A DNA stretch of 64,000 nucleotides from an uncultured Candidatus Binatia bacterium. GTDB taxonomy: Bacteria; Desulfobacterota; Binatia; Bin18. Position 1 is the stretch's first letter; every line of letters starts with the position of its first letter. This document shows, one piece after another, positions 16,660 through 46,258 of this stretch. The stretch spans positions 3,265,587 through 3,329,586 of the forward strand of contig OZ251505.1 in the NCBI GenBank assembly GCA_965242795.1. The letters are read 5' to 3'. The position numbers were made by a program, and so were the translations under genes. The notes under the pieces are model-generated. The model worked only from the letters and a program-made list of their open reading frames with translations. It was not told the DNA's origin and made no database searches.

Positions 16660-16682
16660 TCTCGACTGAAGGAGCGGAACCC

Positions 16683-17735: not shown

Positions 17736-17737
17736 GT

Positions 17738-30289: not shown

Positions 30290-33200
30290 TCAAGACACCG
30301 CCGGCTCGGGGACTCGGGAGGCGACGGCCCAGCCCGCGGACAGGACTTCGGCCTGCTCCAGGACGGTGCGCGTGGCCTGCTCCCGCTTGTCGGGCGGATA
30401 ACCGTGTTTGCGCAGAATGCGCTTGACCAGGACGCGCAACTGCGCGCGCACGTTCTCGCGCAGCGTCCAGTCGATGGTGACGTTGCGGCGCACCGTCTCG
30501 ACCAGTTCGCGCGCAATGGCGCGTAGGGGTTCGTCGCCGAGCACGCGGACCGCGCTGTCGTTGGTCTCCAGCGCGTCGTAGAAGGCGATCTCGTCCTCCG
30601 ACAACCCGAGCGCGGCGCCGCGGGCGTTCGCCGTGCGCAGGTCGCGGGCGAGGTGGATCAACTCTTCGATCACCTGCGCGGCTTCGACGGCGCGGTTCCG
30701 ATAGCGGCGCAAGGTCTGCTCCAACATGGCGCTGAAGGTGCGCGCCTGGACCACGTTCCGGCGCCCGCGGGCGGTGATCTCGCCCTTCAGGAGTTTCTGC
30801 AGCAGATCGACGGCCAGGTTGCGCTGCGGCATGCCCCGAACCTCGGCCAGAAAGTCGTCGGAGAGGACCGATACGTCGGGCTTGTCCAGCCCGGCCGCGG
30901 CGAAGACGTCGGTCACGCCCGCGGACGCGACCGCGCGCGAGATGATCTGCCGGACGGCGCGGTCCATCTCGTCCGCGGGCCGTGCCGCGCCCGGCGCGCG
31001 TTTCGCCAGTACCGCCCGCACCGCCTGGAGGAAGCCCACGTCGTCGCGGATGCGCAGCGCGTCCGCGTGGGGTACCGCCAGCGCGAACGCGTGCGACAAG
31101 GCGTGCACCGCCTGCAGGCAGCGCTCCTTGCCGTCGGGCTGCGCCAGCACGTGTTCCTGCGCCGCGGGCAACAGGCCCAGCCGCTGCGCCGGCGTGCCGG
31201 CCGCCCACGCCGCCCGGTCGAAGCCGTGGAACAGGCCGCAGCAGACCTCGTATTTTTCCAACAGCACCGCGACCGCGTCGGCCTGGTCCAGCGCGGCGCG
31301 CCCGGCGCCACCGCCCTCCGTATAGGTCGCCAGCGCGCGGCGGAGTTCGTGGGCCACGCCCAGATAATCGACCACCAGCCCGCCCGGCTTGTCCCGGAAC
31401 ACGCGGTTGACCCGGGCGATGGCCTGCATCAGCGCGTGGCCGCGCAGCGGTTTGTCCAGATACAGGGTGTGCAGGCTGGGCGCGTCGAAGCCGGTCAGCC
31501 ACATGTCGCGCACCAGCACCATGCGCAGCGGGTCCGCGGGGTCGCGGAAGCGGGCGGCCAGCGCCTCGCGCCGGGGTTTGGTGCGGATGTGCGGCTGCCA
31601 GTCGGGCGGGTCGGCCGCGGCGCCGGTCATGACGATCTTGAGTGCCCCCTGTGCGTCGTCCGGGGCATGCCAGTCCGGGCGCAGGCGCACCAGTTCCCGG
31701 TACAGGGCGATGCAGATGCGCCGGCTCATGCACACGACCATCGCCTTGCCGTCGAGCGCTGTGAGTCGCTGCTCGAAGTGCGTGACCAGGTCGCGGGCCA
31801 CGAGCGCCAGCCGCTGTTCGGCGCCGACCACCGCTTCGAGCTGCGCCCAGCGCGACTTGAGCTTTTCCTTGCGCGCCGTCTCCTCGCCCTCGGTCGCTTC
31901 CTCGAAGTCGGAGTCGATGCTCGGGCGTTCGCGTTCGTCCAGGGCGAGCGCGGCCAGCCGGCTTTCGTAGTAGATCGGGACCGTGGCCCGGTCTTCGACC
32001 GCGCGCTGGACGTCGTAGATGCTGATGTAGTCGCCGAACACGGCGCGCGTGTTGGCGTCGCGCAATTCGACCGGCGTGCCGGTGAAGCCCACGAAGGCGG
32101 CGTGCGGCAGGGCGTCGCGGATGTGGCGTGCGTAGCCGTCGATGAAGTCGTACTGGCTGCGGTGCGCTTCGTCGGCGATCACCACGATGTTGCGGCGCTC
32201 GGACAACGCCGGGGTCGGTGCGGGGTGCGACTCCCGTTCCTCGGACGTATCGGACCGGAGGCGGGCGAGACCCCCGCGTGCCCGGGAGGGAGGCGCGGCC
32301 GGCGCTTCCGGAAAGAATTTCTGGATGGTGGTGAAGATGACGCCGCCGGACGCCACGGCGAGTTTGGCGTGCAGGTCGGCGCGGCTGTCCGCCTGGACCG
32401 GCGGCTGGCGCAACAGGTCCCGGCAGCGCGCGAAGGTGGCGAACAACTGGTCGTCCAGGTCGTTGCGGTCGGTCAGCACCACCACGGTCGGGTTCCGCAG
32501 GGCCGGCTCGCGGACGATGCGCCCGGCGTAGAACGCCATCGTCAGGCTCTTGCCCGACCCCTGCGTGTGCCAGACCACGCCGATGCGGCGGTCGCCGGGT
32601 TCGCCGCCCGGCTTGCGTCCCGCCTCGTAGCGGCCGCCGGCCCCTTCGCCGACGGTGTCGGCCTCCTGTTGCAATTCGGTCGCGCGCAGGGTTTCGGCGA
32701 CCGCGATCTCGACCGCGTGGAACTGGTGGTAGCCCGCCATTTTCTTGACGGGCGCGCCGTCGTCCTCGAAGACGATGAAATCGCGCACCAGCGCCAGAAA
32801 GCGGGCCGGCGCGCACACGCCCTTCAGCAGCACTTCGAGTTCGGGCCGTGCCGGATCGGCCAGCGCGGCGCCGGCAATCGTGCGCCACGGCTTGAACCAC
32901 TCGCGCCCCGCGGTCAGCGTGCCGATGCGCGCCTCCACTCCGTCGGACACGATCAGCGCGGCGTTCAGGGCGAACAGGGCGGGCAACTCGGCCTTGTAGG
33001 TCTGCAACTGGTGCCACGCGGTCCAGACGGTCGCGTCCTCGTCCGCGGGGTTCTTCAACTCGACGATGCCGAGCGGCAGGCCGTTCACGAACAACATCAC
33101 GTCGGGCCGCCGCTCGCGTTGCTGCTCCACCACGGTGAACTGATTGACCGCCAGCCAGTCGTTCTCGTCCGGCTCATCGAAGTCGAGCACGCGCGCCTGC

Positions 33201-33532
33201 GCCCCGCGGACCGCGCCGCCGTCGGGGCGATATTCCACGGTCACACCGTCCACGACCATGCGGTGAAAGGCGCGGTTGCGGGTTTCCAGCGTGACGCCGT
33301 CCGGCCGGGTCAGCCGGCGGACCGCGGCGTCAAGCGCGTCTGCCGGCAGGGCGGGGTTGAGGCGGGCCAGCGCGTCGCGCAGCCGCGGCTCCAGCACGAC
33401 CGCGGCGTAATCGGCGCGCTCCGCCCCGGGCGTTCCCGGTGCGATGTCCGGCCCGGAGGCGACCGACCAGCCCAGGCCGCGCAGCCAGTCGAGCGCCGCG
33501 TCCTCGACGGTGGATTCGGTGAAGTCGGTCAC
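30290..33532 (-). CDS. hsdR: Type I restriction enzyme R subunit (HsdR), ~1080 aa
   Basis: Probable GTG start at [22 protein letters not shown] (classic HsdR N-terminus). Helicase motif I …[11 protein letters not shown]…, DEAH box [10 protein letters not shown], motif VI …QAIARVNR…; C-terminal helical domain. Track ORF 30290..34330 over-extends at the 5' end. Confidence 0.9.
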
Positions 33533-34293
33533 GCGGCCAGATCCTCGCGCGCGGTCTCCCGCCTCGACCACGGCACCGGCCGCACGTCGTAGCGCCGTAT
33601 CGCGTCCGACACGTTCTCCGGGATGGCTCGGTCCGTATCGTTCAGAATGGCGTAGGCGCGGGACTCCGGGGCACGGGTCTCTCTGGTGTCGATCCAGGAG
33701 AAGGCGACCGCCTGTGCGGTGTCGCGGTTCGGTCGGTTGATCGTCCGCAGGACCCGCTCCGGCTGCGCCCGCGACTTCGGAATCACGAAATCGAACCGGT
33801 GATCGTATCCGCTCTTCCCGGTGAACTTCACGTTCGGCGTATAGCGAACCTCGGAAAGGTCGAGCCACGCCACGACGTCCTCGTAGAACAGGCTCTGGAC
33901 CGTGGGCGACGCCAAGGAGAAGAGATCGCCTACGGCGAGCATCGCCTGCACGAGGTTGTGCTTCCGCAGGGGAAAGTTGTCCGACGTCGCTCGAACTTCG
34001 AGTGCCTCCCGGCTGATCTGCACGCCGAACCCGTTGACCGTCGTTTTGAGGAGCGCCTGCCGTTTGGGGCTCCCGAGGGGGCAGCCGGACTGCTCCAGGT
34101 CGCCCAGCACGTACCCGTCGTCCGTCAATACGAATCCGCCATTGGCCCGTTTGACGTAGATTTGGAGGCAGTCGTTGTGCCGGTCCAGGTACGGCGTGGT
34201 GATTTCGATCCAGTCCTCGGTCCGGCGCAGACTCGTCCTGTCCCGTACCCAGGTCGCGTAGCGGTCCACGAGCGCCTGCACGTCTTCGATCAT
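33529..34293 (-). CDS. DUF1828/DUF1829-family protein (commonly associated with type I R-M loci)
   Basis: 254 aa from [16 protein letters not shown]…; ATGA overlap with the hsdR start region. Family assignment is from memory of sequence character, not a computed search. Confidence 0.5.
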
Positions 34294-34739
34294 GTGAACA
34301 ACCCTCGCCGGATGATGGGCGGGTCCACAACGTGACAGAACCGCAGGAAATCTTCGAGAGTTCGCCACGGATCGTTCACGTTCACGAAACGGTCGCCCGG
34401 AACCGGAGCCGCCCACTTGTCGCCGTATCCCTCGCGGTAGAGATGGATGTGCGGCGATCCGATCTCCTCTCCATCCGGGTTGCGGTGCGGTGCCCCGCCG
34501 AAATCGAGCCGGACGAGGACCACGACCTGTCGTCCGCGCTGTTGATAGGTGCCTTTCGCAAGATCGATTCGCGCCCGGGGGATGTCGAGCAGAAACGCCT
34601 CGCGCCGGTCGGTCGAAGCCAACGGAACCGTCACTCGTCCTCCGAAGTCCGGGTAGTCGTACTCGGTCTCGTCGACTCGGCGCTTCTCCATTCTCAGGAG
34701 GGCGTCGGCCTCAGCCTGCGTAAGGTCATGATTCGCCAT
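34290..34739 (-). CDS. Hypothetical protein (149 aa) in the hsd-embedded cargo
   Basis: …[45 protein letters not shown]…; possible His-containing active-site-like motif (PHIHLY). ATGA overlap with the DUF1829 gene. Confidence 0.4.
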
Positions 34740-34754
34740 CGAAGTTGCTCTTTA

Positions 34755-35894
34755 TTACGTGTGCAGGTCCGGGGGGTCCTCACTCGGAATGACGTCGGCA
34801 ATGCGGGCATGCAGCAAGTGCCAGCGCTGGCCGGTGCGCTCCAGGTCGCCTTTTATGACGACCGGCGCCTTGGCGGCGTGGGCGTGAATCGCGCGGTCGT
34901 AGTCGGATTGCGGCAGAACGGCGCTGACGGACTGGATTCGTCCGTCGATGTACGTGCGCAGCGTGATGGCCCCGCCGGTCTCCCGTCCGTCGCGTTGCAG
35001 GCGTTGCACGAGGCCGACCAGTTGCGCGTCCGGTTGCGGTTCGCGCTCGCGGAACGACCGGGCCGCCTCGCGCAGGATCGGCGCGTCGGCCTCGGCGAAA
35101 CGGACGACCGTGCGCACCGTGTCCAGCGGACGGGTGCGCGCCCAGGTCAGGCTGACGTCCAAGGTCGGGAACGGTCCGATCAGGTCGGCGAGCGATTCGC
35201 ACAAGTTGGCGCTCGTCCCGTGGACGACCGCGTTGGAGAAGGCCGCGGCGTCGCCGCCCACCGTTCTTTCCGTTGCCTCGCGGGTAGCGCTCAACGCTTC
35301 GGTCAGACGCCGCGTCATGCGCCGTTCGATCGGGTCGTCGTCGGGGGCCACGTCCAGGGCGAGCAGGGGTTGCGTGGGGGGCGGCACGACCGGAGGCAAC
35401 AAGGTCACGACGTAACTCCCCTGTTCGCTTTGCCCCAAGCGCACGCAGCCGACATAGGCGCTGGCCTCTCGGTTCGCGCCGGCGCGATAGAGCGGTCGCG
35501 GCTCGCGCAACGAGCAGGCCGCGGCCAGCAGCATGTCGTAGGCGCCGCGGAGGAGGCTGACCCCGTCGTTGACGGCTACGGAACCGGTGTCGTCGGGGGC
35601 CACCCGCACCCGGATGACGTCGCGGTCGGCGGTCACCAAGTCGCGGTAGAGCGCGAGTTCGTCCATGTCGGCAACCCGCGCGAAAATGTCGATGAGTTGC
35701 GCAACGACGGCGGCGTAGTCGCCGAGGCGCTGGGTGCGCGGCACGACGATCTCCGGCAGCCCGTCCGCGGCATACACGTCGGAATGATCGCCGTAGGGTT
35801 CGCGCCTGACCCATCCCGCAGCGCGGGCATAGGCCGAGAGGGCCGCAGGGGAAACCGCGGTCAAGGCTTCCGTGTCCCGGATGCTGGCTTTCAT
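34755..35894 (-). CDS. Hypothetical protein (379 aa), translationally coupled to the upstream DUF4365-like gene
   Basis: Start MKASIRDTEALTAVSPAAL… overlaps the stop of the preceding gene (ATGA at 35891-35894). Ordinary globular composition; no known motif recognised. Confidence 0.5.
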   Translation of the reverse strand: MKASIRDTEALTAVSPAALSAYARAAGWVRREPYGDHSDVYAADGLPEIVVPRTQRLGDYAAVVAQLIDIFARVADMDELALYRDLVTADRDVIRVRVAPDDTGSVAVNDGVSLLRGAYDMLLAAACSLREPRPLYRAGANREASAYVGCVRLGQSEQGSYVVTLLPPVVPPPTQPLLALDVAPDDDPIERRMTRRLTEALSATREATERTVGGDAAAFSNAVVHGTSANLCESLADLIGPFPTLDVSLTWARTRPLDTVRTVVRFAEADAPILREAARSFREREPQPDAQLVGLVQRLQRDGRETGGAITLRTYIDGRIQSVSAVLPQSDYDRAIHAHAAKAPVVIKGDLERTGQRWHLLHARIADVIPSEDPPDLHT

Positions 35895-36391
35895 CGGACG
35901 GTCCCTCCTCTCGATTGGTCCATCAATGCGCGCAGACCTTCGACAGTGAACAGATTCCCCGTCGGGATTCGGACGGTGACGGACGATCGATTGTCCGATT
36001 CCTCGGCCCCTTGCAAGTTCAGCCAATAGGCGCTCCGCCGCAGTATGAGCTCGTCCGCGGTGATCGTCATCCAGCGGTGCTCGTCCCTCGGCAGGTCGAG
36101 TACGACGAGCAGGCGCGGCGTCTGGGTCGGCTGACGTAACAGATCGTAGTTTCGACGTTTGAGGGGGAAGTGAAAACGTCCTTCATGCGGTTCGCTCAGA
36201 TTGATCGTTGCCTTCAATTGCAAATCGAGCGCCGGGCGCATCGCCCCGCCGGCTTGAATTCGCAGGTCCACGCCGTCCCGGTCCGGGTCGGGGATGGACG
36301 TGACGTAGCCGGTCCGTGCCGCTACGGCGTACGCATAGGCGCGGGAGAGGGCTTCTTGCCGGTCGGGGGCGGTCAGGAGGGTGTCGGTCAT
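35891..36391 (-). CDS. DUF4365-like PD-(D/E)xK-fold protein
   Basis: 166 aa. …IPDPDRDGVDLRIQAGG…LDLQLKAT… fits a D…(D/E)xK restriction-endonuclease-like core. The family call is tentative. Confidence 0.5.
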   Translation of the reverse strand: MTDTLLTAPDRQEALSRAYAYAVAARTGYVTSIPDPDRDGVDLRIQAGGAMRPALDLQLKATINLSEPHEGRFHFPLKRRNYDLLRQPTQTPRLLVVLDLPRDEHRWMTITADELILRRSAYWLNLQGAEESDNRSSVTVRIPTGNLFTVEGLRALMDQSRGGTVR

Positions 36392-36689
36392 AGGATGCTT
36401 TCACCTGTTTTTCAGGATTGCGGCTCTTGAGAGATTCGATCCGCGGGACGGCGGGTGAGGCAGCCGATTGGGACATTGGGGAGAGTCTCGGGGGCTTGTC
36501 GGCCCGCAGTTGACCGGAAAAGGGGGGCCAGGGCAAGAAGACAGGCTGGCGGTCGTGCATCCGTTTCGGTGGCGCTGCCCGGGAACGTGGGCGTTCCGCC
36601 CGCCTGTGGTGCGGACTGGAAGCCCGCGTTCCCAGGAAGAATAAGGCCAATCGATGCACGCCCGAAGGCTCAAGGCAGCCGGGTTCTTT

Positions 36690-36750
36690 CCTCCGATCAC
36701 CTCCCCCTAGTCCCTGAGATGGTCGAAGGATGAGGGGGAGTGATAGGAAG
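36690..36750. repeat. Near-perfect 12-bp inverted repeat (atcacctccccct…agggggagtgat) in a 410-bp intergenic gap; shares the 'gggggagtgat' motif with 40885 and 40968
   Basis: gatcacctccccctagtccctgagatggtcgaaggatgagggggagtgatagg. Confidence 0.4.
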
Positions 36751-36802
36751 GGCGCCCTACGGGCACGCTAAAGAATGGATATAACGTAGCCGGTCCACGC
36801 AG

Positions 36803-37474
36803 CTACGATGCTGGAACTGTCACATGGACCACAGCCCGTTCGGCAGGAAGTATCGACTCAGCAAAGGAGCCATCCTGCACGGGGAGCCTGTCAGCATATC
36901 GAGCCGACGCGGTGTGGTAGAAATTCCTGAGAATGAAGTCGATAAACCAGAAAGGCGTCATTGGGGCCGTTACCGGGATCCGGCAGTTTTGGTATTGGCC
37001 GAGCGTCAAATGAGACTTAGGATGTGTTAGCTCTCGGTGACGGCCGTCCCGAGCGTCATAGTCAAAACGCACCGGAAACGGAACGATGTTCCTGGAGAGC
37101 ACATCAGCGTAGATTTCGTCGTCTTGGTAGATATCCGGATTGTTCTGGAATTCTTCAAGGTGGGGTGCAGAGAAAAACGCAAGTCGGTGACGTTGCAGCG
37201 TTCCATTGACGAAGGCGTATGTCATCTGAATCAATGCGCCGTCAAGCATCTTTGCGTTGTAGGCACGCTCTTGGACAAGACTTTGGTAAATTTCCTCGTA
37301 TGGACGATCCTTTAACGCTTCTGACACATGTTCAGCTTTGTCAAAAGTGACTTGCACAAGATTATTAGCACCAGACTTTTGGAACGCAAAGCGTTGATCG
37401 TCGACGAGACTCCTCTCAACTAAATACTTGATGATTTCGTTGACTTGCTTTTCAACCTGATTGGAAGTTGGCAC
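36803..37474 (-). CDS. Hypothetical protein (223 aa; possibly DUF2290-like), upstream partner of the NERD-helicase
   Basis: Low-GC codon usage matching the helicase gene. Lies 5 nt upstream of the helicase stop and is presumably co-transcribed. No catalytic motif recognised. Confidence 0.5.
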   Translation of the reverse strand: MPTSNQVEKQVNEIIKYLVERSLVDDQRFAFQKSGANNLVQVTFDKAEHVSEALKDRPYEEIYQSLVQERAYNAKMLDGALIQMTYAFVNGTLQRHRLAFFSAPHLEEFQNNPDIYQDDEIYADVLSRNIVPFPVRFDYDARDGRHRELTHPKSHLTLGQYQNCRIPVTAPMTPFWFIDFILRNFYHTASARYADRLPVQDGSFAESILPAERAVVHVTVPAS

Positions 37475-37479
37475 GATCC

Positions 37480-39642
37480 TTATCCTTTCTCCATCAAGAG
37501 GGTTCGCAGTTTGGCCCGTTTGTTCCCGTCTAGGTCCTCAATATGAACATCACCCGATTCGATGTCTGCAATTAAATTGGCTAGGCTTCTTTCGTGGCTT
37601 TTCAATCGCTTGCGACCCTGCATTGTCATATCTCGATGAATGATCCACAACTTGTTACGTTGTTCTTTCGTAGGGTAGACGAATTGCAACTCGAAATCTT
37701 GTCGTCTTAGCTTCTGGTATTCTTCTTCAAGTTTCTTCATGTTATTACCGACACCGAGAACACGGACCCATGCTTTGCTTCGGGTTACGGCTGTAAAGAG
37801 ACGGTTCCGAATACTCGCTAAGTTCCACGCCGTTGAGTGACAGTCTTGTGCGTTGATGATATAAACCATTCCGGCTTCATTACCTTTAGCGCGATATATT
37901 CCGGTGAATGTCACAGAGGTCGAATCTGGCTGGAAAAAAACGTCTGCGGGGGTGTCGACTCCAGCGAGGTGGGAATCGATGCCCATTTCCAATAAGCGTC
38001 TACGTATTGGCCCAACATTTTGCCGGGTCGTAAGGGGATCAGGGTTGATGACAATTATGTCGTCATGTTTGAGTTCGTCGTTCTGAAGGTTGTTCCTGAT
38101 TTCGTTAGCCAACCATTCAGCCTGGGACTCATCATCGTCGAATTTTTTGAATAGGACAAGGTCGTCAACAGGGGAATGGTTTTCGAGGAATGCTGGGCTT
38201 GAATCTGTCGTCCTGTGAAGAATAATGTGCGACCCTTCCCTTAACTCTCCCGCTTTGTTGTAGTAGCCGACATCTTCCCATAGCTGCGGATGTTCAAACA
38301 TCTGGATGAGACCTGTCTCACTTAAATCTGATGGTTCCCGATATATGCCAAATCCGAGCGCATGTGCTGTTACAAGAACAGGACGTGAGTTACGGTAACA
38401 CTTTTTCAGAATGATATCGCATTGTGGCTCATCGCTTCCCGCATCATTGAATCTCACTTTGGGGGACCCGTCAGCCTTTTTCCCAAAGATTTCTTCCGGT
38501 GAGGATAAGGACTCTCCAGAGAGGCTCTGCAACTCATCGTAAGCATAAACCAGTCTTTTGGGGTATTTTAGCAATTCGTAACAGAGTCGCAGAAACATGG
38601 GGGAAAAGTCCTGTGCCTCGTCTAGGAGAACTGCGTCGTAGAGATGCTTGCTTTGATGGACTTGATTAAGCGCGTGTTCGCATGCCCCGGAAAATTCCTT
38701 TTCCCTACCGAACTTATCTCTCGCCGCTCCGAAATCGAAGTAGTCAATGTCATGTTGGCGACAAAATTCGTAATAAATTCCGTCACGTTCGCTGCTACCA
38801 GGAGCTCCCCACGCGGTGACGATTCGTAGAATATTCCAGTCAGGCTCCTCGCCCGTTTGTTCTATGGAAAATTTATTTATCAGACGACGAAAATGTCCCT
38901 TCAGCGAACGAGTATTGAATGTGACAGCTATACGCCATTCAGGATGTTGTGCGTGGAGATAGGCTGCTTTCAGTGCTAAGATGATAGTCTTACCCGAACC
39001 TGCTAAGCCGCGGATGCGCTGTACTCCTTCGACTGTTTCGATAACCGCCCGGATTTGTCTATTATCGAGCGTAGAGATCGAATTTTCAAGTTCTTTGAGT
39101 CTGTAGCCTCGAGAGTTGTTTTTTGTAGTGGTCCGGCCGAGCTTATTTTTTCTAATCGTAGAAACACTTTCGATTACGGACAGCGATTTCTCGTATATTT
39201 CTTTGCTTGAATTCTCCCATCTCAAATTCTCTAGCTCGTGGATAAGGGAACGAGAATTGGCGAGGGGGTAGCTGCATTCCGAGGATAGATTCAATTTACT
39301 AATTCCCGGCGCAAACGAAATCGTATGGACCGGGATAAGGAGCTTTCTTTGTAGCATTAATTCTCGATGAGTTTTAAGTCGCCCTTCAAGCTTGTTGGCA
39401 GAGTCATCTTGTCGAAATTGGTAATCTCCGGCCTCAGACCCCTCTATCAGGTCAAATAGAACGATTCCTTTGTCTGCAGACACAAAGATCGCGTCAATTA
39501 GATGGCGTCCTTCGGACGTGTTGATGATTGGATATCCGATGAACAACTGGCCCGCTAAAGCAGTCTGAGAGGAAAACATTTCAACCAGAAACTGACTAGA
39601 AGCAGGCTTCTGATTGGTTCCTTGAACTATGTTTATGCTCAT
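37480..39642 (-). CDS. NERD-domain / superfamily-1 (UvrD/Dna2-like) helicase, 720 aa
   Basis: N-terminal NERD-like segment (…GYPIINTSEGRHLIDAIFVSADKGIVLFDLIEG…). Walker A IRGLAGSGKT, motif II VLLDEAQDF, motif VI-like TAVTRSKAW. ~45% GC. Confidence 0.8.
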   Translation of the reverse strand: MSINIVQGTNQKPASSQFLVEMFSSQTALAGQLFIGYPIINTSEGRHLIDAIFVSADKGIVLFDLIEGSEAGDYQFRQDDSANKLEGRLKTHRELMLQRKLLIPVHTISFAPGISKLNLSSECSYPLANSRSLIHELENLRWENSSKEIYEKSLSVIESVSTIRKNKLGRTTTKNNSRGYRLKELENSISTLDNRQIRAVIETVEGVQRIRGLAGSGKTIILALKAAYLHAQHPEWRIAVTFNTRSLKGHFRRLINKFSIEQTGEEPDWNILRIVTAWGAPGSSERDGIYYEFCRQHDIDYFDFGAARDKFGREKEFSGACEHALNQVHQSKHLYDAVLLDEAQDFSPMFLRLCYELLKYPKRLVYAYDELQSLSGESLSSPEEIFGKKADGSPKVRFNDAGSDEPQCDIILKKCYRNSRPVLVTAHALGFGIYREPSDLSETGLIQMFEHPQLWEDVGYYNKAGELREGSHIILHRTTDSSPAFLENHSPVDDLVLFKKFDDDESQAEWLANEIRNNLQNDELKHDDIIVINPDPLTTRQNVGPIRRRLLEMGIDSHLAGVDTPADVFFQPDSTSVTFTGIYRAKGNEAGMVYIINAQDCHSTAWNLASIRNRLFTAVTRSKAWVRVLGVGNNMKKLEEEYQKLRRQDFELQFVYPTKEQRNKLWIIHRDMTMQGRKRLKSHERSLANLIADIESGDVHIEDLDGNKRAKLRTLLMEKG

Positions 39643-39662: not shown

Positions 39663-41627
39663 CTAGCTTTTATCGCCTGATGGTTCATGGACATCCCTCT
39701 CGAGATTTGAAACTGGATATTCTAACTCATCTGAAATAAGTCTCAGTAGCAACGTATCTCGTACTGAAGTTAATGTGCAAATTTCCTTCTCGTGTAACAA
39801 AATCGTTTTATGGATTGGATGGCTCATCTTCTCAAACCATCTTATTAGATTTGATCCCGGATTCAAAATGGACAAATTACTAAAGGTGGACTTGTTCATA
39901 TTCCCAAATACAGACCCTCCACTTCCTCCCGCTAGGACCTCGGCCGATAAGCCTCTACATGCCCAATACAAATATTTGATCATCCGCCTGTCATTAGGAA
40001 CTATACTGTTGATTTGCTGGTTAGTGTGAGTCTCTCTATGGTTGATGACTACAAGCCCGGGTGTAGCTATGCAACTCATCGACATACTACCTGGGGGCAA
40101 GGCTTTCGTAGGCTGAGATGAAGCGCCTGCGTATGAAAGCATAGTGTGGGTGTGCATTACATATATCCTTTTATGCATATCAGGGATTTTCAAGAATGGG
40201 ACGTCCGCTCCGTAGAAGGCCGGATTGTGTGTATCTGGGGTTTTTCCAGTAACTATTGTTCCAAACTCTTTCAATTTCTTCAAGGCCCATCTTCTTGGGA
40301 TCGGACCGACAGCAGATTTCTCGAACCCATCCGGGAACAGGGCCACAACCTCCGGGTCCATCCCGTCGAGATAGGCACGGGCGCGTTCGACCGTCCACGC
40401 CGTGGTTCCCTTCCTATCATTCCCCCCTTGAGGGGGAGTCGCAGTCGCCAAGCCTTCAGGCGCCGGCGACTGCGGTGGGGGGTCCCCCGCTACCGCCTCG
40501 TACACCCGCTCCAACACCCCGAAACAGTTCTCGAAGACCTCCGTATTCCAGAAGCGGAGCACGCGGTAGCCCCGCGCCCGGAGAAAGGCGTCGCGCTTCT
40601 CGTCCCGGCTCGTCTGTTCCGCATGCTGGCCGCCGTCGAGTTCGATGAGCACCTTGCGGGACAGACAGGCGAAATCGACGATGTACGGACCGATGGGTTG
40701 TTGGCGGCGGAACCGGTAGCTGCCGAGTTGTTTGTTGCGGAGGTAGTGCCAGAGGAGTCCTTCGGCGTCGGTGCGGTTGCGGCGGAGGGCGCGGGCGGCG
40801 GTCAAGGCGCGACGGGAGTAGCCGCGGCGGACGACCCCCCACCGGCTCGACTGCGGGCTGCGCCCTTGTCTCGCCGACTCCCCCTCAAGGGGGGAGTGAT
40901 GAGACGGGGAAACCGGCGGGGAGGAGAGTCTCCCATGGGCCGTGGCCGTTTCGTCTCCTGCTTGCAACGGGGAGTGATGGGATGAGGCACGGCGCTTGAG
41001 GGCGGCTTTGGCGTGGACGGGGTCGAAATCGACGAACCAGGACTTGAACAGCGCCCGCGCCATATCCTCCAGCGTGGCGTTCAGGCGGCGGTTCAGGGCG
41101 ATCTTGTCGTCCAGCGTGCCGAGGACGTGGGCGATGCGGTGTTGCTCCGGGAGCGGCGGCAGCCGGAGTTCCAGCCGCGCGATGTCGTCGGGCCGGATGG
41201 ACGGATAGGCGGAGACGCTGTGCTCGGCGATGGTGTGCAGCCGCTCGACGACATGGCCTTGCGCCAGAAACCAGTAGAGGAAGTCCGTATGTGCCACGCC
41301 GGCCTTGCCCCGGATGACGGCGAAGGCGGTCGAGACCAGCAGATTGTCCGGCGGGTCTTTCAGCAGGCCGAAGTGGCGCTGGTCCGGGCGCACGGTCGAA
41401 TACACGATGTCGCCCGGCTGCACCTTGCGGCGCGCCCGACTCGGAATCTTGTCGGTCCCCGGCACCAGGCGGCGGATGGTACCAACGCGATTGTCGGTGA
41501 CGTTGCCGGTATCGAGATAGTGGATGAACGGCCACGCCTCTTTCGGCGAATACGTGGCGTCGTTGATGACCGCGCAGTCGCCCAGGGTCACGGTGCGCCA
41601 CTGAACCGTATTCGATACGGAAGCCAT
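39663..41627 (-). CDS. hsdS: Type I restriction-modification specificity subunit HsdS with an in-frame ~200-aa DUF559 (Vsr-like endonuclease) insertion in the central conserved region; low-GC TRD2
   Basis: TRD1 plus central conserved helix (…LPPLPEQHRIAHVLGTLDDKIALNRRLNATLEDMARALFKSWFVDFDPV…). Then the insert with a DUF559 core (…LLWHYLRNKQLGSYRFRRQQPIGPYIVDFACLSRKVLIELDGGQHAEQTSRDEKRDAFLRARGYRVLRFWNTEVFEN…). Then resumption (…ARAYLDG…) and TRD2. 654 aa versus ~400-450 typical. Confidence 0.8.
   Translation of the reverse strand: MASVSNTVQWRTVTLGDCAVINDATYSPKEAWPFIHYLDTGNVTDNRVGTIRRLVPGTDKIPSRARRKVQPGDIVYSTVRPDQRHFGLLKDPPDNLLVSTAFAVIRGKAGVAHTDFLYWFLAQGHVVERLHTIAEHSVSAYPSIRPDDIARLELRLPPLPEQHRIAHVLGTLDDKIALNRRLNATLEDMARALFKSWFVDFDPVHAKAALKRRASSHHSPLQAGDETATAHGRLSSPPVSPSHHSPLEGESARQGRSPQSSRWGVVRRGYSRRALTAARALRRNRTDAEGLLWHYLRNKQLGSYRFRRQQPIGPYIVDFACLSRKVLIELDGGQHAEQTSRDEKRDAFLRARGYRVLRFWNTEVFENCFGVLERVYEAVAGDPPPQSPAPEGLATATPPQGGNDRKGTTAWTVERARAYLDGMDPEVVALFPDGFEKSAVGPIPRRWALKKLKEFGTIVTGKTPDTHNPAFYGADVPFLKIPDMHKRIYVMHTHTMLSYAGASSQPTKALPPGSMSMSCIATPGLVVINHRETHTNQQINSIVPNDRRMIKYLYWACRGLSAEVLAGGSGGSVFGNMNKSTFSNLSILNPGSNLIRWFEKMSHPIHKTILLHEKEICTLTSVRDTLLLRLISDELEYPVSNLERDVHEPSGDKS
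40414..40900 (-). mobile_element. Inverted-repeat-bounded DUF559 cassette inserted in-frame into hsdS (miniature selfish element candidate)
   Basis: tccccccttgagggggagt at 40414-40432 and its inverted counterpart gactccccctcaaggggggagtgat at 40868-40892 flank the DUF559-coding segment. The 5' flank carries the 62-bp GC-rich element also found at 30218-30283. The flanks translate as HSPL(Q/E)GE mini-repeats inside HsdS. Confidence 0.4.
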
Positions 41628-41969: not shown

Positions 41970-42275
41970 CGTATCGGTCATCTGTGGCCGGCAAAAGAAT
42001 TTGTCGGCCATTTTTGGCGAAAAGTGGCCGGCAACGCGCGTTGTCGGTCATGGGTGGCCGATAGCGCCGTTCGTCTCGAAAGGGCGCCATCAATCCAGAC
42101 CGCCGGCGGCCGTGGCGTCGCAATCATACCCGTCTTCGCCATCCACGGCTCCGGCTCGATAGAGTTCCTTCCGTATCGGTCATCCATGACCATCAAAGGA
42201 ATTTGCCGGCCATTTTTTGCGGAAAGTGGCCGGCAACGCGCGTTGTCGGTCATGGGTGGCCGATAGCGCCGTTCC
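41970..42275. repeat. Two ~105-bp direct repeats (41970-42072 and 42171-42275), each containing reiterated tcggtcatNNgtggccggcaa sub-motifs; in the fic-hsdS intergenic region
   Basis: cgtatcggtcatctgtggccggcaaaagaatttgtcggccatttttggcgaaaagtggccggcaacgcgcgttgtcggtcatgggtggccgatagcgccgttc repeated with ~90% identity. Confidence 0.7.
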
Positions 42276-43374
42276 CGCCCTCCACGGTCTCGATGAGGTC
42301 GGAGAACGCGAGCACGGTCGTCCGGCGGCCTCTGCCGCGGCCGATGACGCTCAGAATGCCGCCCTCGCACAACGCGTCCACGAGGCGCCGCGCCGTTCTT
42401 GCCGGAATGCCGGCATCGGCAACGAAATGGGAACTGCGGAAGATCGGTCGCTCGAAAATCCAGTCCAATGCGCGGATGGCGTATCGGGAGCGCGTCAGAT
42501 TCGGCACGCGCCGCTTCATGTCGTCGTAGAGGGCGAGAATCCCCTTGGTCTTGACCAAGTTGTCTTCCGCCTGTGCCTGCACCGCTTCGAGGAAGAACCG
42601 ACACCAGCCGGTCCAGTCATCATCGCGTGAGACGCCCAGCAGTTGCTCATAGTAGATGTCCCGGTGCGCCTCGAAATAGGCGCTAATGTAGAACATGGGC
42701 CGTCCGATAATGCCGTGCTGCCACAAGAACAGGGGAATCAGCATCCGCCCGAGGCGGCCGTTACCGTCCAGAAATGGGTGCAGCGCCTCGAACTCGGCGT
42801 GGAGAATGGCGAGTTGCGTCAGCCGGTCGGGGGCGTCCCGGTGAACGTATCGCTCCCATCCGCTCATGGCACGGGTGAGCGTCTCGGCACCGGGAGGGAC
42901 GAATTTGGCTTGGTCGATGTCGCAGCCGGGCGGGCCGATCCAGTTGGGGACGCGCCGGTATCTCCCCGGGGACTTTCCTTTCCCGCGGACGCCGGACAGT
43001 AACACTTTGTGCACGCTGCGGAGGACGCGCTGGGAGAGCGGCAGCTTCTTCAGCATCTGCTCCGCTTGCCGCATGGCGGCCCGGTAATTGAGCACTTCAT
43101 GGATGTCGTCGCGGCGTTCGGGCGATTCCGCTTCCTGTCCGGCTTCGAACTCCATCACCTCGCCCATGGTGGCCTGCGTGCCCTCGATCCGTGAAGAAAG
43201 GACGGCCTCCCTGGTCGTCAGGGGCGCGAGCAGCACGTCGGGGTTCGGGACCGCGGAGAGCATCCCGTCGTACCGCGCGACCGCGCCGGCCGCCGGACCG
43301 ATCAGCGGGATCAGCGTCTGCCAGTCGAGACGCTCGGGCGGGAACTGCCCGGCGTGATAGTGGATGGGCGCCAT
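42250..43374 (-). CDS. fic: Fic/DOC-family protein (class II, N-terminal inhibitory helix) embedded between hsdM and hsdS
   Basis: FIC motif HPFLDGNGRLGR; alpha-inh-like motif SRIEGT near the N-terminus; 374 aa. The start ATG overlaps the hsdM stop (TGATG). Track ORF 42250..44319 is an over-extension. Confidence 0.85.
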   Translation of the reverse strand: MAPIHYHAGQFPPERLDWQTLIPLIGPAAGAVARYDGMLSAVPNPDVLLAPLTTREAVLSSRIEGTQATMGEVMEFEAGQEAESPERRDDIHEVLNYRAAMRQAEQMLKKLPLSQRVLRSVHKVLLSGVRGKGKSPGRYRRVPNWIGPPGCDIDQAKFVPPGAETLTRAMSGWERYVHRDAPDRLTQLAILHAEFEALHPFLDGNGRLGRMLIPLFLWQHGIIGRPMFYISAYFEAHRDIYYEQLLGVSRDDDWTGWCRFFLEAVQAQAEDNLVKTKGILALYDDMKRRVPNLTRSRYAIRALDWIFERPIFRSSHFVADAGIPARTARRLVDALCEGGILSVIGRGRGRRTTVLAFSDLIETVEGGNGAIGHP

Positions 43375-44963
43375 CAGTCCCCTCCGAATCCGAGGCGGCG
43401 CAGATTCTCCGCAATGGCGGCGTCCAGCTTCTTCGCCTCGGCCTGCTGGGCGCGGAGTTGCGCGGTGAGGCGGCGCATCTTGGCCTCGAACGACTCGCCG
43501 TCGTCCCGCGGGGCCGCCGCGCCGACGTAGCGGCCGGGGGTGAGCACGTGACCGTGGGCGCGGATGTCGTCCAGCGTAGTGCTTTTGCAGAAGCCGGGCG
43601 CGTCGACGTCCGTCCCCGTGCGCCACGCATGATAGGTATCGGCGATGCGGCCCACGTCGTCGGCTGCGAGTTCGCGGTGGGTGCGGTCCACCATGCGGCC
43701 CAGCTTGCGGGCGTCGATGAACAGCACGTGGCCGCGCCGCGGGCTGCGCGGGCGGTCGCGGGCGAGGAACCACAGGCAGGCCGGAATCTGGGTCGAGTAG
43801 AAGAGTTGGCCCGGCAGGGCGACGAGGCAGTCCACCACGTCGGCCTCGACCAGGCCGCGGCGGATGCTGCCCTCGCCGGCCTGGGTGGACGACATGGAGC
43901 CGTTGGCCAGCACGAACCCGGCCACGCCGGCGGGCGCCAGATGGTGCACGATGTGCTGTACCCAGGCGAAGTTGGCGTTGCCCTTGGGCGGCACGCCGTA
44001 GCGCCAGCGCGTGTCGTCGGCGAGCCGCTCGCCGCCCCAGTCGGAGACGTTGAAGGGCGGGTTGGCGAGGATGAAGTCGGCCTTGAGGTCGGGGTGGCGG
44101 TCGTCGTGGAAGCTGTCGCCCTGCGCGATCTGGCCGGCGATGCCGCGGATCGCGAGGTTCATCTGTGCGAGCCGCCACGTCGTATAGTTCGACTCCTGGC
44201 CGTAGATGGAGATGTCCGGCTTGGCGCCGCCGGGCATGCGCTCGCCATTGCCGTTGCCGGTCGCGTGCGCGTCGATGAAGGCGACCGACTGGACGAACAT
44301 GCCGGCCGAGCCGCAGCACGGGTCGTACACCCGGCCGCGGTAGGGCCGCAGCATCTCCACCAGGAGGGTGACCACGCAGCGTGGGGTGTAGAACTGGCCG
44401 CCCTTCTTGCCTTCGGCGCTGGCGAACTGCGACAGGAAGTATTCGTACACGCGGCCGAGCACGTCCTTGGACCGGGCGTCGGCGTCGCCCACGCGGACGT
44501 TGCCGACGAGGTCGATCAGCCGGCCGAGCTGCTGTTTGTCGAGGCCGGGGCGCGCGTAGTCCTTGGGCAGCACGTCCGCGAGCGCGGGGTTGTCGCGTTC
44601 GATGGCGGCCATAGCGTCATCCACGCGCCGGCCGACGTCGGGCTGCCGCGCCTGAGCCGCGAGATGCGGCCAGCGCGCCTCGGGCGGCACCCAGAAGACG
44701 TTCTGGGCGCGGTATTCGTCCGGGTCTTCCGGGTCGGCGCCCTCGGCCCGTTCGCCTTCGAGGCGGGCGTGCGTCTCGGCGAACGCGTCGGAGATGTACT
44801 TCAGGAAGATCAGGCCGAGGACGACGTGCTTGTATTCCGCGGCGTCCATACTGCCGCGCAACGCGTCGGCCATGCGCCACAGCTCGGCTTCGTAGCCGGT
44901 CGTGGCGCCGGACGGTGCGGCGTCGGTCTGCGGCGGGGTCTTCTTCGTGCGGGTACGGGCCAT
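43374..44963 (-). CDS. hsdM: Type I restriction-modification N6-adenine DNA methyltransferase subunit (HsdM)
   Basis: N-terminal HsdM_N helical domain (…[18 protein letters not shown]…). SAM motif I …[12 protein letters not shown]…, catalytic NPPF (…ILANPPFNV…). 529 aa. Confidence 0.9.
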
Positions 44964-45046
44964 GCCGTGCTGCTTCCGTGCCGGTTACGCTGCTGCAGGT
45001 CCGCGGCCGTCCGCACACGACGGGAGCGCGGAGGCGGGATGGGCGG

Positions 45047-46258
45047 TCATGTTTTCAGCCATTCCCCGACGGGTTTCAACAGGAAGGTTCCGACATCGAT
45101 CCCGTCGCTACCGACGAGCAGTTTGCGCGTCGGCCGGAACGCCGCGGAAAAGGCCGCCATGCCGGCCCGCGTGTCCGCCGGGCGCCCGCTCTTGACCTCG
45201 ATGGCGATCAGTCGGTTGCCTGCGCGCACCACGAAATCGACCTCGCGGCTGCGTTCGCGCCAGTAATGGACCGTACAATCGCCGGCGACCGCGGCGTTGG
45301 CCAGATGGGCGCCGACCGCGGACTCGACCAGCCGCCCCCAGAACACGCGATCGGCGCGAGCCTCGGCCAGGGTCACCCCCGCCTGCGCGGTGATCAGCGC
45401 GGTGTTGAAGACCTGGAGCTTGGGGCTCGAAGCCCGCCGCCGGACCGCGGCGCCGGCGTATTTTTGCAAGCCGGTCAGCAGCCCGGCCCCGGCCAACAGG
45501 TCGAGATAATGCGCCAAGGTCGTGGTGTTGCCCGCCTCCTGAAGCTGCCCCTGCATCTTGGTGTAGGAGAGAATCTGTCCGGAGTAGGCGCACCCCAACT
45601 CCAGCAGCCGGCGCAGCAAGGCGGGCTTGTCCACGCGCGAGAGCAGTAGCACGTCGCGGGAAACGACGGGTTCGATGAGCGCGTCCCGGACGTAGCGCGC
45701 CCAGCGGGGCGGCTGCCGGATCAGTGGCGCCGCCCCGGGATAGGCCCCGTAGAAGAGATATTGATCCAGTGACCAGTCGAAGGCTTCCCGCATTTCGGCG
45801 AAACTCCAATGGGGCAGCCGCAACACCTCGAACCGCCCGGCCAAGCTCTCGCCCAAGCCGCGCTCGACGAGCAGCGGCGCCGAGCCGAGCAGGACGACTT
45901 TGAGCGGTACGCCGGTGCGCGTGTCCGCGTCCCACAGCCGTTTGACGGTCTCGGACCAGCCCGTCACCTTCTGCACTTCGTCCAGCACCAGCAGCGCGCC
46001 GTTCGCGTCCGCCTCGTGGGTGAGGTTGCGCCCGGCTTCCCACTGTTGTTCGACCCACTCGGTGCCGCGCAAGGTCGGCTCGTCCGCGCTGGCCGTATGC
46101 GTCGGCAGGTCGGACCGCCGTACGGCATCTGCCACCAGGGTGGTCTTGCCGACCTGTCGCGCGCCGGCCACGACGTGAATGAAGCGTCGCGGCTCGGCCA
46201 GCCGATGGACGAGTTCCCGAACTTGAGGACGAGAATAGGACGACGATTTACTCAACAT
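45047..46258 (-). CDS. AAA+ ATPase, DUF4143 family (paralogue of the gene at 1-1073)
   Basis: Walker A GARQVGKTT, Walker B …LLVLDEVQ…, DUF4143-like C-terminus; 403 aa. Confidence 0.8.
   Translation of the reverse strand: MLSKSSSYSRPQVRELVHRLAEPRRFIHVVAGARQVGKTTLVADAVRRSDLPTHTASADEPTLRGTEWVEQQWEAGRNLTHEADANGALLVLDEVQKVTGWSETVKRLWDADTRTGVPLKVVLLGSAPLLVERGLGESLAGRFEVLRLPHWSFAEMREAFDWSLDQYLFYGAYPGAAPLIRQPPRWARYVRDALIEPVVSRDVLLLSRVDKPALLRRLLELGCAYSGQILSYTKMQGQLQEAGNTTTLAHYLDLLAGAGLLTGLQKYAGAAVRRRASSPKLQVFNTALITAQAGVTLAEARADRVFWGRLVESAVGAHLANAAVAGDCTVHYWRERSREVDFVVRAGNRLIAIEVKSGRPADTRAGMAAFSAAFRPTRKLLVGSDGIDVGTFLLKPVGEWLKT

What the first reader, a model, noticed from the sequence alone, without database searches (positions are those of the whole stretch)
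36803..39642. Low-GC two-gene module inside the hsd locus: NERD-domain SF1 helicase plus a small upstream partner
A 223-aa protein of unknown function is followed 5 nt later by a 720-aa protein. The larger protein has an N-terminal NERD-like nuclease-related domain and a complete SF1 helicase core (GSGKT, DEAQ, TAVTRSK). The two genes share codon usage and are clearly foreign (~45% GC). Helicase-plus-small-partner pairs are the architecture of Hachiman, Gabija and Nhi-like systems. The partner here did not match any named effector I recognise, so this may be an undescribed variant.
Basis: partly seen in the sequence, partly recalled or inferred. Interest (0 to 1): 0.65.

Follow-up and report, generated by a model that had tools for sequence, protein, structure and literature searches.

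The report
Known Helicase+DUF2290 defence cassette in hsd operon
The two low-GC genes are an ordinary member of the already described 'Helicase + DUF2290' anti-phage/anti-plasmid defence system, sitting as a foreign cassette inside a type I restriction-modification operon; how the system works is still unknown, and its small protein has a fold with no solved relative.

Summary
The ORFs, the 5-nt gap, the SF1 helicase motifs and the low GC (47% against 65-72% in the flanks) are all real. Both genes are on the minus strand, so the 720-aa helicase is upstream and the 223-aa gene downstream, the reverse of the title. The small protein is DUF2290 (Pfam E=7e-51). Both proteins match the PADLOC models of the 'Helicase+DUF2290' system over their full length (E=4e-96 and E=0). 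This system was shown to block phage T7 (Rousset 2022) and is the same kind as PA1371/PA1372 of P. aeruginosa PAO1. It is therefore not an undescribed variant. The NERD claim is not supported: there is no Pfam hit, and the D...ExK motif is not conserved in distant relatives. In 77 of 80 loci from many phyla the helicase lies directly upstream of DUF2290, and the pair is nearly always lower in GC than its host. Flanking genes vary; about 10-15% of loci are type I R-M, one is BREX, and others are plasmids or an ICE. A confident AlphaFold model of DUF2290 (pLDDT 93) has no match in the PDB or BFVD, so the effector chemistry stays open. Side observations: the foreign tract includes the second target-recognition domain (TRD2) of hsdS, and hsdS carries a recurrent in-frame DUF559 insertion.

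The parts
37480..39642 (-). SF1 (UvrD-like) helicase of the Helicase+DUF2290 system, 720 aa. Layout: N-terminal ~190-aa domain of unknown fold, helicase core (Q-motif, Walker A GSGKT, DEAQ, motif VI TAVTRSK), and a conserved C-terminal tail (~aa 640-720, YPT..QR..L..HRD).
   Evidence: ORF. PADLOC PDLC03002 'Helicase' E=0, 1040 bits, residues 3-717 against profile 2-705/707. Pfam UvrD_C_2 4e-8 and UvrD-helicase 8e-6. 100% identical to database protein P0121. Conserved residues.
36803..37474 (-). DUF2290 partner protein, 223 aa, GTG start. Stand-alone alpha/beta protein. Family-wide conserved residues: Y59, Y63, D78, R97, R136, D138, H151, H155, R165.
   Evidence: Pfam PF10053 E=6.8e-51, 173 bits against a cutoff of 25. 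PADLOC PDLC02999 E=4e-96, residues 1-221 of 222. Alignments. AlphaFold2 model pLDDT 93.0, pTM 0.90.
37475..37488 (-). Gene junction: AAAGGA (37488-37483) inside the last helicase codons, TAA stop (37482-37480), 5-nt spacer, then the GTG of DUF2290 at 37474. This layout fits translational coupling.
   Evidence: Read from the sequence. Across 73 loci the helicase-DUF2290 gap is estimated at -15 to +11 nt.
39663..40300 (-). 3' part of hsdS (TRD2 plus the C-terminal conserved region). It has the same low GC as the cassette, so the foreign tract is about 36.8-40.3 kb rather than 36.8-39.6 kb. This is context, not a component of the defence system.
   Evidence: GC 0.478 and GC3 0.496, against 0.66/0.87 for TRD1. 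The switch at ~40300 is sharp. The same boundary is seen in relatives L111 and L113.
36392..36802 (-). Conserved non-coding block downstream of DUF2290. It contains a mini inverted-repeat element (36700-36751), a long hairpin (about 36585-36640) and a relic of an AAA_15-type ATPase N-terminus (36417-36476). Function unknown.
   Evidence: No Rfam match.
39663..41627 (-). hsdS (context): TRD1, an in-frame DUF559 insertion (aa ~216-385) flanked by 48-nt inverted repeats at 40394-40441 and 40875-40922, then TRD2.
   Evidence: Pfam Methylase_S (two stretches) and DUF559 1.4e-39. Repeats. The architecture recurs in database relatives.
43374..44963 (-). hsdM (context).
   Evidence: Pfam N6_Mtase 1.8e-102 and HsdM_N 6e-26.
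30290..33535 (-). hsdR (context).
   Evidence: Pfam HSDR_N, SWI2_SNF2, T1R_D3-like and T1RH-like_C. The start near 33535 is inferred from the alignment of domains and from relatives.

Best explanation
Shown: the two genes are a complete, intact copy of the known two-gene 'Helicase + DUF2290' defence system (DefenseFinder Rst_HelicaseDUF2290; PADLOC Helicase-DUF2290). It is a horizontally mobile, low-GC cassette. In this genome lineage it is lodged between hsdS and hsdR of a type I restriction-modification operon, and that operon also hosts other defence cassettes (SoFic, PDC-M02, PDC-M24, PDC-S01).

From the literature: a Klebsiella homologue blocks phage T7 when expressed in E. coli. In P. 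aeruginosa PAO1, plasmid pNUK73 causes high rep expression, SOS induction and a fitness cost only when the helicase PA1372 is intact.

Inferred mechanism (my estimate is about 35-40% for this version): the helicase and DUF2290 are made in fixed ratio by translational coupling and act as one complex. The SF1 helicase is the ATP-driven sensor. It engages replication intermediates or free ends of invading DNA, such as T7 or small plasmids. DUF2290 is the partner whose conserved Asp/Arg/His/Tyr pocket acts on nucleic acid or nucleotide once the helicase is engaged. The outcome is blocked replication, DNA damage and SOS. This is analogous to Hachiman HamAB but uses unrelated proteins.

The N-terminal domain of the helicase is at most a degenerate, non-catalytic NERD-like module. 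The system works independently of the surrounding hsd genes.
For: Identity:
- Pfam DUF2290 E=6.8e-51.
- PADLOC PDLC02999 4e-96 and PDLC03002 E=0, both full length.

Pairing:
- A helicase lies directly upstream on the same strand in 77 of 80 genome loci from many phyla. The gap was estimated at -15 to +11 nt in the 73 of these loci with a complete helicase.
- The pair is kept at 24-44% identity on plasmids of Lactococcus, Thioflavicoccus, Acinetobacter and E. coli.
- Identities of the two proteins co-vary across loci (r=0.84, n=72).
- DUF2290 is always a stand-alone ~220-aa protein among the best 150 of 1341 cluster representatives.

Mobility:
- Module GC averages 0.478 against 0.585 in the flanks, and is lower in nearly every locus.
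- Neighbours vary.
- In E. coli it sits at the edge of an ICE.

Function, from papers:
- T7-specific protection (PMC9122126).
- PA1372/PA1371 and the plasmid cost/SOS effect (PMC4410645; PMC11637435).
- Phage-specific effects of deletion in PAO1 (bioRxiv 2026.09.16.752016).

Intactness:
- All helicase motifs and all family-invariant DUF2290 residues are present.
Against: - No activity was tested for this copy. A lactococcal homologue gave no protection against the phages tried (PMC11381338).
- DUF2290 shows no similarity to any nuclease or other known effector. HMM searches against PDB sequences found nothing. Foldseek with the confident model found nothing in the PDB (best E 0.19, TM 0.16) or BFVD (best E 0.05). 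An enzymatic effector role is therefore only an inference from conserved polar residues.
- In PAO1 the compensatory mutations were reported in the helicase, not in DUF2290. That would also fit the helicase being the active agent.
- The cassette is co-inherited with hsdS TRD2 in this lineage, so a functional link to the R-M system cannot be excluded.
Confidence: 0.8

Rival explanations
1. The helicase itself is the effector. It unwinds or strips proteins from foreign replication intermediates, producing ssDNA and SOS. DUF2290 is a non-enzymatic specificity or regulatory subunit.
For: Loss-of-function mutations that removed the plasmid cost in PAO1 mapped to the helicase PA1372 (PMC4410645). DUF2290 has no recognisable catalytic fold. 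The helicase has two extra conserved domains, an N-terminal ~190 aa and a C-terminal ~80 aa, that could bind DNA or the partner.
Against: DUF2290 is as strongly conserved as the helicase. Its near-invariant Asp, Arg, His and Tyr residues (Y59, D78, R136, D138, H151, H155, R165) are kept across 120 representatives that share only 31-69% identity with the window protein. That pattern is more typical of an active or ligand-binding site than of a scaffold. The helicase gene is 3.2 times larger than the DUF2290 gene, so mutations falling only in it is weak evidence.
Confidence: 0.25
2. The cassette is functionally tied to the host's restriction system. It acts as a second line of defence triggered when type I R-M or BREX is inhibited, for example by DNA-mimic anti-restriction proteins such as T7 Ocr. 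This would resemble PARIS or PrrC.
For: It is embedded between hsdS and hsdR here and in at least 9 of 80 other loci carrying the same HsdR family (48-77% identity). It is embedded in a BREX operon on Thioflavicoccus pTHIMO01. The validated homologue protects only against T7, the Ocr-encoding phage. The low-GC tract includes hsdS TRD2 and is kept with hsdS in relatives while other cassettes are swapped.
Against: Most loci (about 85%) have no R-M gene as a neighbour. The pair occurs alone on 11-kb plasmids and an ICE. The Klebsiella system was active when cloned alone, and the trigger was not examined. In PAO1 the system is at PA1371-72 and responds to a plasmid replication protein. Embedding in R-M or BREX operons is common for many unrelated defence genes.
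Confidence: 0.1
3. It is a housekeeping or accessory DNA-repair helicase operon, or an inactive relic, rather than a defence system.
For: The Pfam hits are only to generic UvrD-type helicase domains. The closest solved protein by sequence is PcrA (E 5e-5, Q-motif and Walker A only).
Against: GC3 is 0.48-0.54 in a genome with GC3 of 0.82-0.93. Distribution across phyla is patchy and the context varies. It is rare in E. coli: 3 of 5426 genomes carry the pair. It does not reach any NCBIfam repair-helicase cut-off. It is always paired with DUF2290. Both ORFs are intact with all motifs. Defence has been shown experimentally for a homologue.
Confidence: 0.03

Closest known systems
Helicase + DUF2290 system (Rst_HelicaseDUF2290; Rousset et al. 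2022, from a K. pneumoniae P4-like satellite hotspot)
   Same: Same two components (a DUF2290 protein plus an ATP-dependent SF1 helicase). Both are detected by the PADLOC models for this system over their full length. Same gene order and tight spacing as in all relatives examined.
   Different: This copy sits in a type I R-M operon of a high-GC bacterium rather than in a P4 satellite. Activity was not tested.
PA1372 (helicase) / PA1371 (DUF2290) of P. aeruginosa PAO1
   Same: Same system by the authors' and tools' annotation (PMC11637435). Also a low-GC (44%) island in a ~67% GC genome, and also always found as a pair (PMC4410645).
   Different: The PAO1 copy lies in a small island next to a transposase, not in the hsd locus. 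Sequence identity to the window proteins was not measured.
Hachiman (HamA DUF1837 nuclease + HamB helicase)
   Same: Two-gene helicase-plus-small-partner architecture. It is a plausible working analogy: a helicase senses DNA state and controls the partner (PMC12278908).
   Different: HamB is an SF2 helicase and HamA is DUF1837. There is no PADLOC or Pfam match to either. The DUF2290 model has no match to any solved structure.
Gabija (GajA OLD-family nuclease + GajB UvrD-like helicase)
   Same: The helicase is SF1/UvrD-like. There are weak local GajB hits (best E 1e-5, about 50 residues around Walker A).
   Different: No GajA-type ATPase/TOPRIM partner is present. GajB similarity is confined to generic motifs.
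Nhi and other NERD/nuclease-helicase fusions (PADLOC 'C3a187 NERD+UvrD', DRT 'RTasNERD-Hel')
   Same: Similar layout of an N-terminal ~190-residue domain followed by an SF1 core. The helicase core aligns to C3a187 at E 1e-16. The local motif IDA..KGIVLFDLIEG resembles the NERD D...ExK strand pair; this resemblance is from my own recollection of the NERD profile.
   Different: The N-terminal domain does not align to these models. The lysine is absent (D64-L-I66). D64 and E67 are not conserved in distant family members; only D50 and G59 are. Nhi acts as a single protein, whereas here DUF2290 is an obligate partner.

Membership tests
Helicase+DUF2290 defence system (Rst_HelicaseDUF2290 / PADLOC Helicase-DUF2290) | A DUF2290 (PF10053) protein | tested here: met
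   Pfam E=6.8e-51, 173 bits against a cutoff of 25. PADLOC PDLC02999 E=4e-96, full length.
Helicase+DUF2290 defence system (Rst_HelicaseDUF2290 / PADLOC Helicase-DUF2290) | The cognate SF1 helicase matching the system's helicase model | tested here: met
   PADLOC PDLC03002 E=0, 1040 bits, residues 3-717 against 2-705/707. The N-terminal domains of 50 relatives, including distant plasmid copies, all match this model.
Helicase+DUF2290 defence system (Rst_HelicaseDUF2290 / PADLOC Helicase-DUF2290) | The two genes adjacent and co-oriented | tested here: met
   5-nt gap, same strand, helicase first. Same arrangement in 77 of 80 loci and on 4 plasmids.
Helicase+DUF2290 defence system (Rst_HelicaseDUF2290 / PADLOC Helicase-DUF2290) | Protection against phage (T7 in the original report) | not testable with these tools
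   Known only for a Klebsiella homologue (PMC9122126). A lactococcal homologue was inactive against the phages tried.
NERD domain (PF08378) nuclease-related module | Significant match to the NERD profile | tested here: not met
   No hit for the window protein at E<=10. One of 18 relatives at E 0.19 and one of 50 at E 0.066. No hit to PDB sequences.
NERD domain (PF08378) nuclease-related module | Conserved catalytic D ... (D/E)xK residues | tested here: not met
   The window has D50 ... D64-L-I66-E67-G68, with no lysine. Only D50 is invariant across distant members; D64 and E67 are replaced in plasmid homologues.
Hachiman | HamA (DUF1837) partner and SF2 HamB helicase | tested here: not met
   No HamA or HamB model among the PADLOC hits at E<=0.1. 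The partner is DUF2290 and the helicase is SF1/UvrD-like.
Gabija | GajA OLD-type ATPase/TOPRIM nuclease next to a GajB helicase | tested here: not met
   No GajA hit. GajB hits are local only (best E 1e-5 over residues 198-246).
Nhi | Single-protein nuclease-helicase matching the Nhi model | tested here: not met
   The Nhi model gives E 2.9e-4 over residues 327-378 only. An obligate second gene is present.
Housekeeping SF1 repair helicases (UvrD/PcrA/Rep, RecD2, helicase IV) | Score above the NCBIfam equivalog cut-off | tested here: not met
   PcrA 16.9 bits against a cutoff of 911, RecD2 18.8 against 500, helicase IV 17.4 against 543, STM2767 family 107 against 550.

The most novel reading that the evidence does not exclude
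Two readings are not excluded. First, DUF2290 may be a previously unseen kind of effector or regulator: the confident model has no structural relative in the PDB or in predicted viral structures. Second, the cassette is repeatedly lodged in type I R-M and BREX operons, here co-inherited with hsdS TRD2, and its homologue protects only against T7. Together these could mean that the system is a back-up defence triggered when restriction is disabled by anti-restriction proteins.
Probability: 0.12. Interest if true: 0.65.

Novelty: already known. Interest (0 to 1): 0.27.

Why it matters
As an annotation the result is routine. Standard defence finders would label this pair, and the identical helicase and HsdS proteins are already in public databases. 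The value lies in correcting the record: gene order, no NERD support, the true extent of the foreign tract, and not a new variant.

There are also three leads for anyone studying this still mechanism-less system:
- A high-confidence DUF2290 model with no known fold relative, plus a short list of invariant residues to mutate.
- Strict helicase-to-DUF2290 coupling across phyla.
- Recurrent lodging in R-M and BREX operons.

The system also bears on plasmid fitness costs, as shown for PAO1 PA1372.

Tried and rejected
- Exact-sequence look-ups of the window helicase, P0121 and P0396 found no record. The source organism therefore could not be named, although a protein identical to the helicase and an HsdS at 100% BLASTP identity exist on a 4.19-Mb NCBI contig.
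- The first AlphaFold run, with 25 close homologues, was poor (pLDDT 57). Its Foldseek search was meaningless.
- Profile searches of DUF2290 and of the helicase N-terminal domain against PDB sequences gave nothing.
- A 2H-phosphoesterase reading of 'H155-L-T-L' was considered and dropped. There is only one such motif, T157 is not invariant, and no 2H structure appears among the Foldseek hits.
- A PD-(D/E)xK reading of DUF2290 was dropped for the same lack of fold hits.
- The promoter/terminator scan was not above chance.
- Rfam gave no match on the downstream non-coding block.
- A metagenome scan for the inverted-repeat motif returned only chance matches in unrelated contexts.
- There was no DUF2290 match in 50,697 phage records and no megablast match in E. 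coli genomes.
Full report
OBSERVATION

Two ORFs lie at exactly the stated coordinates: 36803..37474 (223 aa, GTG start) and 37480..39642 (720 aa, ATG start). Both are on the minus strand. The 720-aa gene is therefore transcribed first, and the 223-aa gene follows after TAA plus 5 nt. An AAAGGA lies 8 nt before the GTG, inside the last helicase codons. The title's 'small upstream partner' reverses the true order.

- GLAGSGKT
- DEAQD
- TAVTRSK
- a UvrD-type Q-motif

GC over the finding interval is 0.471. GC3 is 0.48 for the helicase and 0.54 for the small gene, against 0.82-0.93 for every neighbouring gene. The low-GC tract does not stop at 39642. It continues to about 40300 and covers the second target-recognition domain (TRD2) of hsdS, with GC3 0.50 and a sharp switch at ~40300.

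WHAT IT IS

The small protein is DUF2290: Pfam PF10053, E=6.8e-51. Against PADLOC it matches model PDLC02999 'DUF2290' (E=4e-96, residues 1-221 of 222). The large protein matches PDLC03002 'Helicase' (E=0, 1040 bits, residues 3-717 of a 707-position model). These are the two components of the 'Helicase + DUF2290' system.

What the literature says about this system:
- Rousset et al. found it in a P4-satellite hotspot of K. pneumoniae and showed that it specifically inhibits T7 in E. coli (PMC9122126).
- DefenseFinder lists it as Rst_HelicaseDUF2290 (PMC12278908).
- In PAO1 it is PA1372/PA1371 (PMC11637435). That copy is a 44%-GC island in a 67%-GC genome and is always found as a pair.
- Loss of the PAO1 helicase removes the high rep expression, SOS induction and fitness cost caused by plasmid pNUK73 (PMC4410645).
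- Deleting the PAO1 system changes susceptibility to some phages (bioRxiv 2026.09.16.752016).
- A lactococcal homologue showed no protection against the phages tried (PMC11381338).
- I found no paper in the library that gives a mechanism.

MEMBERSHIP IN OTHER SYSTEMS

- Hachiman: no HamA or HamB models are hit.
- Gabija: GajB is hit only locally, at E 1e-5.
- Nhi: hit only over about 50 residues, at E 3e-4.
- Repair helicases: NCBIfam models score far below their cut-offs.
- Closest solved protein by sequence: PcrA, and only around the Q-motif and Walker A.

THE NERD CLAIM

Pfam gives no NERD hit for the window protein. Among N-terminal domains of relatives, 1 of 18 gave E 0.19 and 1 of 50 gave E 0.066, and no other family recurs meaningfully. 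PADLOC models that contain NERD (C3a187, RTasNERD-Hel) align only to the helicase core. The isolated N-terminal domains match only the family's own model, 50 of 50. Profile searches against PDB sequences give nothing.

The local sequence IDAIFVSADKGIVLFDLIEG resembles a NERD strand pair, but it lacks the lysine. In distant homologues (34-47% identity) only D50 and G59 are invariant, while D64 and E67 are replaced. At most this is a degenerate, non-catalytic NERD-like module.

CONSERVATION AND CONTEXT

DUF2290 has more than 2100 database relatives. There are 1341 cluster representatives at 50% identity, and the best 150 are all stand-alone proteins of about 220 aa with no fusions.

A genome scan returned 80 loci from Nitrospirota, Binatia, Latescibacterota, Chloroflexota, Spirochaetia, Planctomycetota, Proteobacteria and others.
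- In 77 of them a helicase of this family lies directly upstream on the same strand. Of the three exceptions, two are cut by contig ends and one is a partial DUF2290 copy.
- The estimated gap is -15 to +11 nt.
- Identities of the two proteins co-vary across loci (r=0.84, n=72).
- Module GC averages 0.478 against 0.585 in the flanks and is lower in nearly every locus. The cassette therefore looks foreign almost everywhere.

Immediate neighbours vary:
- HsdS upstream in 3 of 64 loci
- HsdR downstream in 4 of 67 loci
- elsewhere AAA_15/AAA_21 ATPases, SMC-like proteins, Type ISP enzymes, methylases, or ordinary metabolic genes

By tblastn, 9 loci carry the same HsdR family next to the cassette, 8 at 72-77% identity and one at 48%.

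On plasmids the pair persists at 24-44% identity. It sits inside a BREX operon in Thioflavicoccus, and it occurs on Lactococcus, Acinetobacter (11 kb) and E. coli IncI plasmids. In E. coli chromosomes it is rare: 3 of 5426 genomes carry the pair. There it sits at the edge of an integrative conjugative element. No copy was found in 50,697 phage records.

THE LOCAL LOCUS

All genes are on the minus strand. The order is:
1. PDC-S01 ATPase (45047..46258)
2. hsdM (43374..44963)
3. SoFic (42250..~43350)
4. hsdS (39663..41627)
5. helicase
6. DUF2290
7. a 410-nt non-coding block
8. PDC-M02A/B (35891..36391 and 34755..35894)
9. PDC-M24A/B (34290..34739 and 33529..34293)
10. hsdR (30290..~33535)

Two metagenomic relatives carry the same chromosomal site, next to xanthine-dehydrogenase-family genes. 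One (L111) has the identical order. The other (L113) keeps hsdS::DUF559, helicase, DUF2290 and hsdR but replaces the other cassettes with an AlbA_2/Schlafen ATPase, a PemK toxin-antitoxin pair and a PIN pair.

The GC boundary at TRD2 is the same in all three. The low-GC tract is more diverged than the flanks. In L113 the identities are TRD2 74%, helicase 82% and DUF2290 90%, against 92-93% for HsdR, TRD1 and the flanking dehydrogenase. The hsd operon is thus a scaffold for changing defence cassettes. In this lineage the helicase-DUF2290 pair travels with the 3' half of hsdS.

STRUCTURE OF DUF2290

With 25 close homologues the model was poor (pLDDT 57). With 120 diverse representatives it became confident: pLDDT 93.0, pTM 0.90. 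The model shows:
- an N-terminal helix
- a three-stranded meander
- two helices
- a long beta-hairpin
- a less confident helical excursion
- three more strands
- C-terminal helices

Foldseek finds no significant neighbour in the PDB (best E 0.19, TM 0.16) or in BFVD (best E 0.05, TM 0.32). HMM search against PDB sequences is empty.

HOW IT MOST LIKELY WORKS

Shown:
- obligatory pairing of the two genes
- tight spacing between them
- co-variation of the two proteins
- intact ATPase and helicase motifs
- mobility of the cassette

From the literature:
- anti-T7 activity of a homologue
- helicase-dependent SOS and fitness cost with a plasmid in PAO1

Inferred: the two proteins form a complex. The helicase senses or engages replication intermediates or ends of invading DNA. 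DUF2290 then acts on nucleic acid or nucleotide, or alternatively tunes the helicase. Replication is blocked and DNA damage follows.

My estimates for the versions are:
- about 35-40% that DUF2290 is the effector
- about 25% that the helicase is the effector
- about 10% that the system is triggered by inhibition of restriction; this is suggested by the R-M and BREX embedding and the T7 specificity, but most loci lack R-M neighbours

A housekeeping role is effectively excluded.

VERDICT

The interpretation as a defence helicase pair is right. The suggestion of a new variant is wrong, because this is a standard member of a known, experimentally supported but mechanistically unsolved system. Interest is low to moderate.

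Noticed in passing
window 39663-41627 (hsdS), insertion about 40394-40922: hsdS carries an in-frame DUF559 (Vsr-like endonuclease) domain between its two target-recognition domains. At the DNA level the insertion is bounded by 48-nt inverted repeats (81% complementary). About 102 of the best 120 database relatives of this HsdS also combine Methylase_S with DUF559, with identity down to 38%. Many also carry nucleotidyltransferase domains (PF18765, PF01909, PF22600). This is therefore a recurrent S-subunit architecture whose meaning I do not know.
   Followed up: partly
window 36700-36751: A miniature copy of the same inverted-repeat pair, without the DUF559 ORF, lies 52 nt after the DUF2290 stop. 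The low-GC tract is therefore bracketed by copies of one repeat family. The mini-element is conserved in relatives L111 and L113. A metagenome scan for the motif gave only chance matches.
   Followed up: partly
window 36392-36802, hairpin about 36585-36640: The non-coding block after DUF2290 is more conserved among the window, L111 and L113 than the adjacent coding cassette. It contains a long hairpin (z-score -2.5 against shuffles). There is no Rfam match, and it is unique within the window.
   Followed up: partly
window 36417-36476: Relic of the N-terminus of an AAA_15/AAA_23-type ATPase: 20 residues, 95% identical to the start of an 82-aa ORF in L111. This suggests an earlier cassette that decayed.
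   Followed up: partly
window 33529-36391 and 42250-46258: The same hsd operon holds four other PADLOC-recognised modules: PDC-M02A/B (DUF4365 plus a 379-aa protein), PDC-M24A/B (DUF6978 plus DUF1828/DUF1829), SoFic, and PDC-S01 (AAA_14/DUF4143 ATPase). In relative L113 some are replaced by an AlbA_2/Schlafen ATPase and PemK and PIN toxin-antitoxin pairs.
   Followed up: partly
window 16422-18280; 52244-53281; 6118-7551: Other low-GC patches in the window: an AAA_21/AAA_15 ATPase followed by a DUF3226 protein, an Mrr_cat restriction endonuclease, and a 477-aa ORF with no Pfam match.
   Followed up: partly
L081 3843-6696 (Thioflavicoccus mobilis plasmid pTHIMO01): A distant Helicase+DUF2290 pair (about 28% DUF2290 identity) sits inside a BREX operon, between the methyltransferase and PglZ. 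This parallels the hsd embedding seen here.
   Followed up: no
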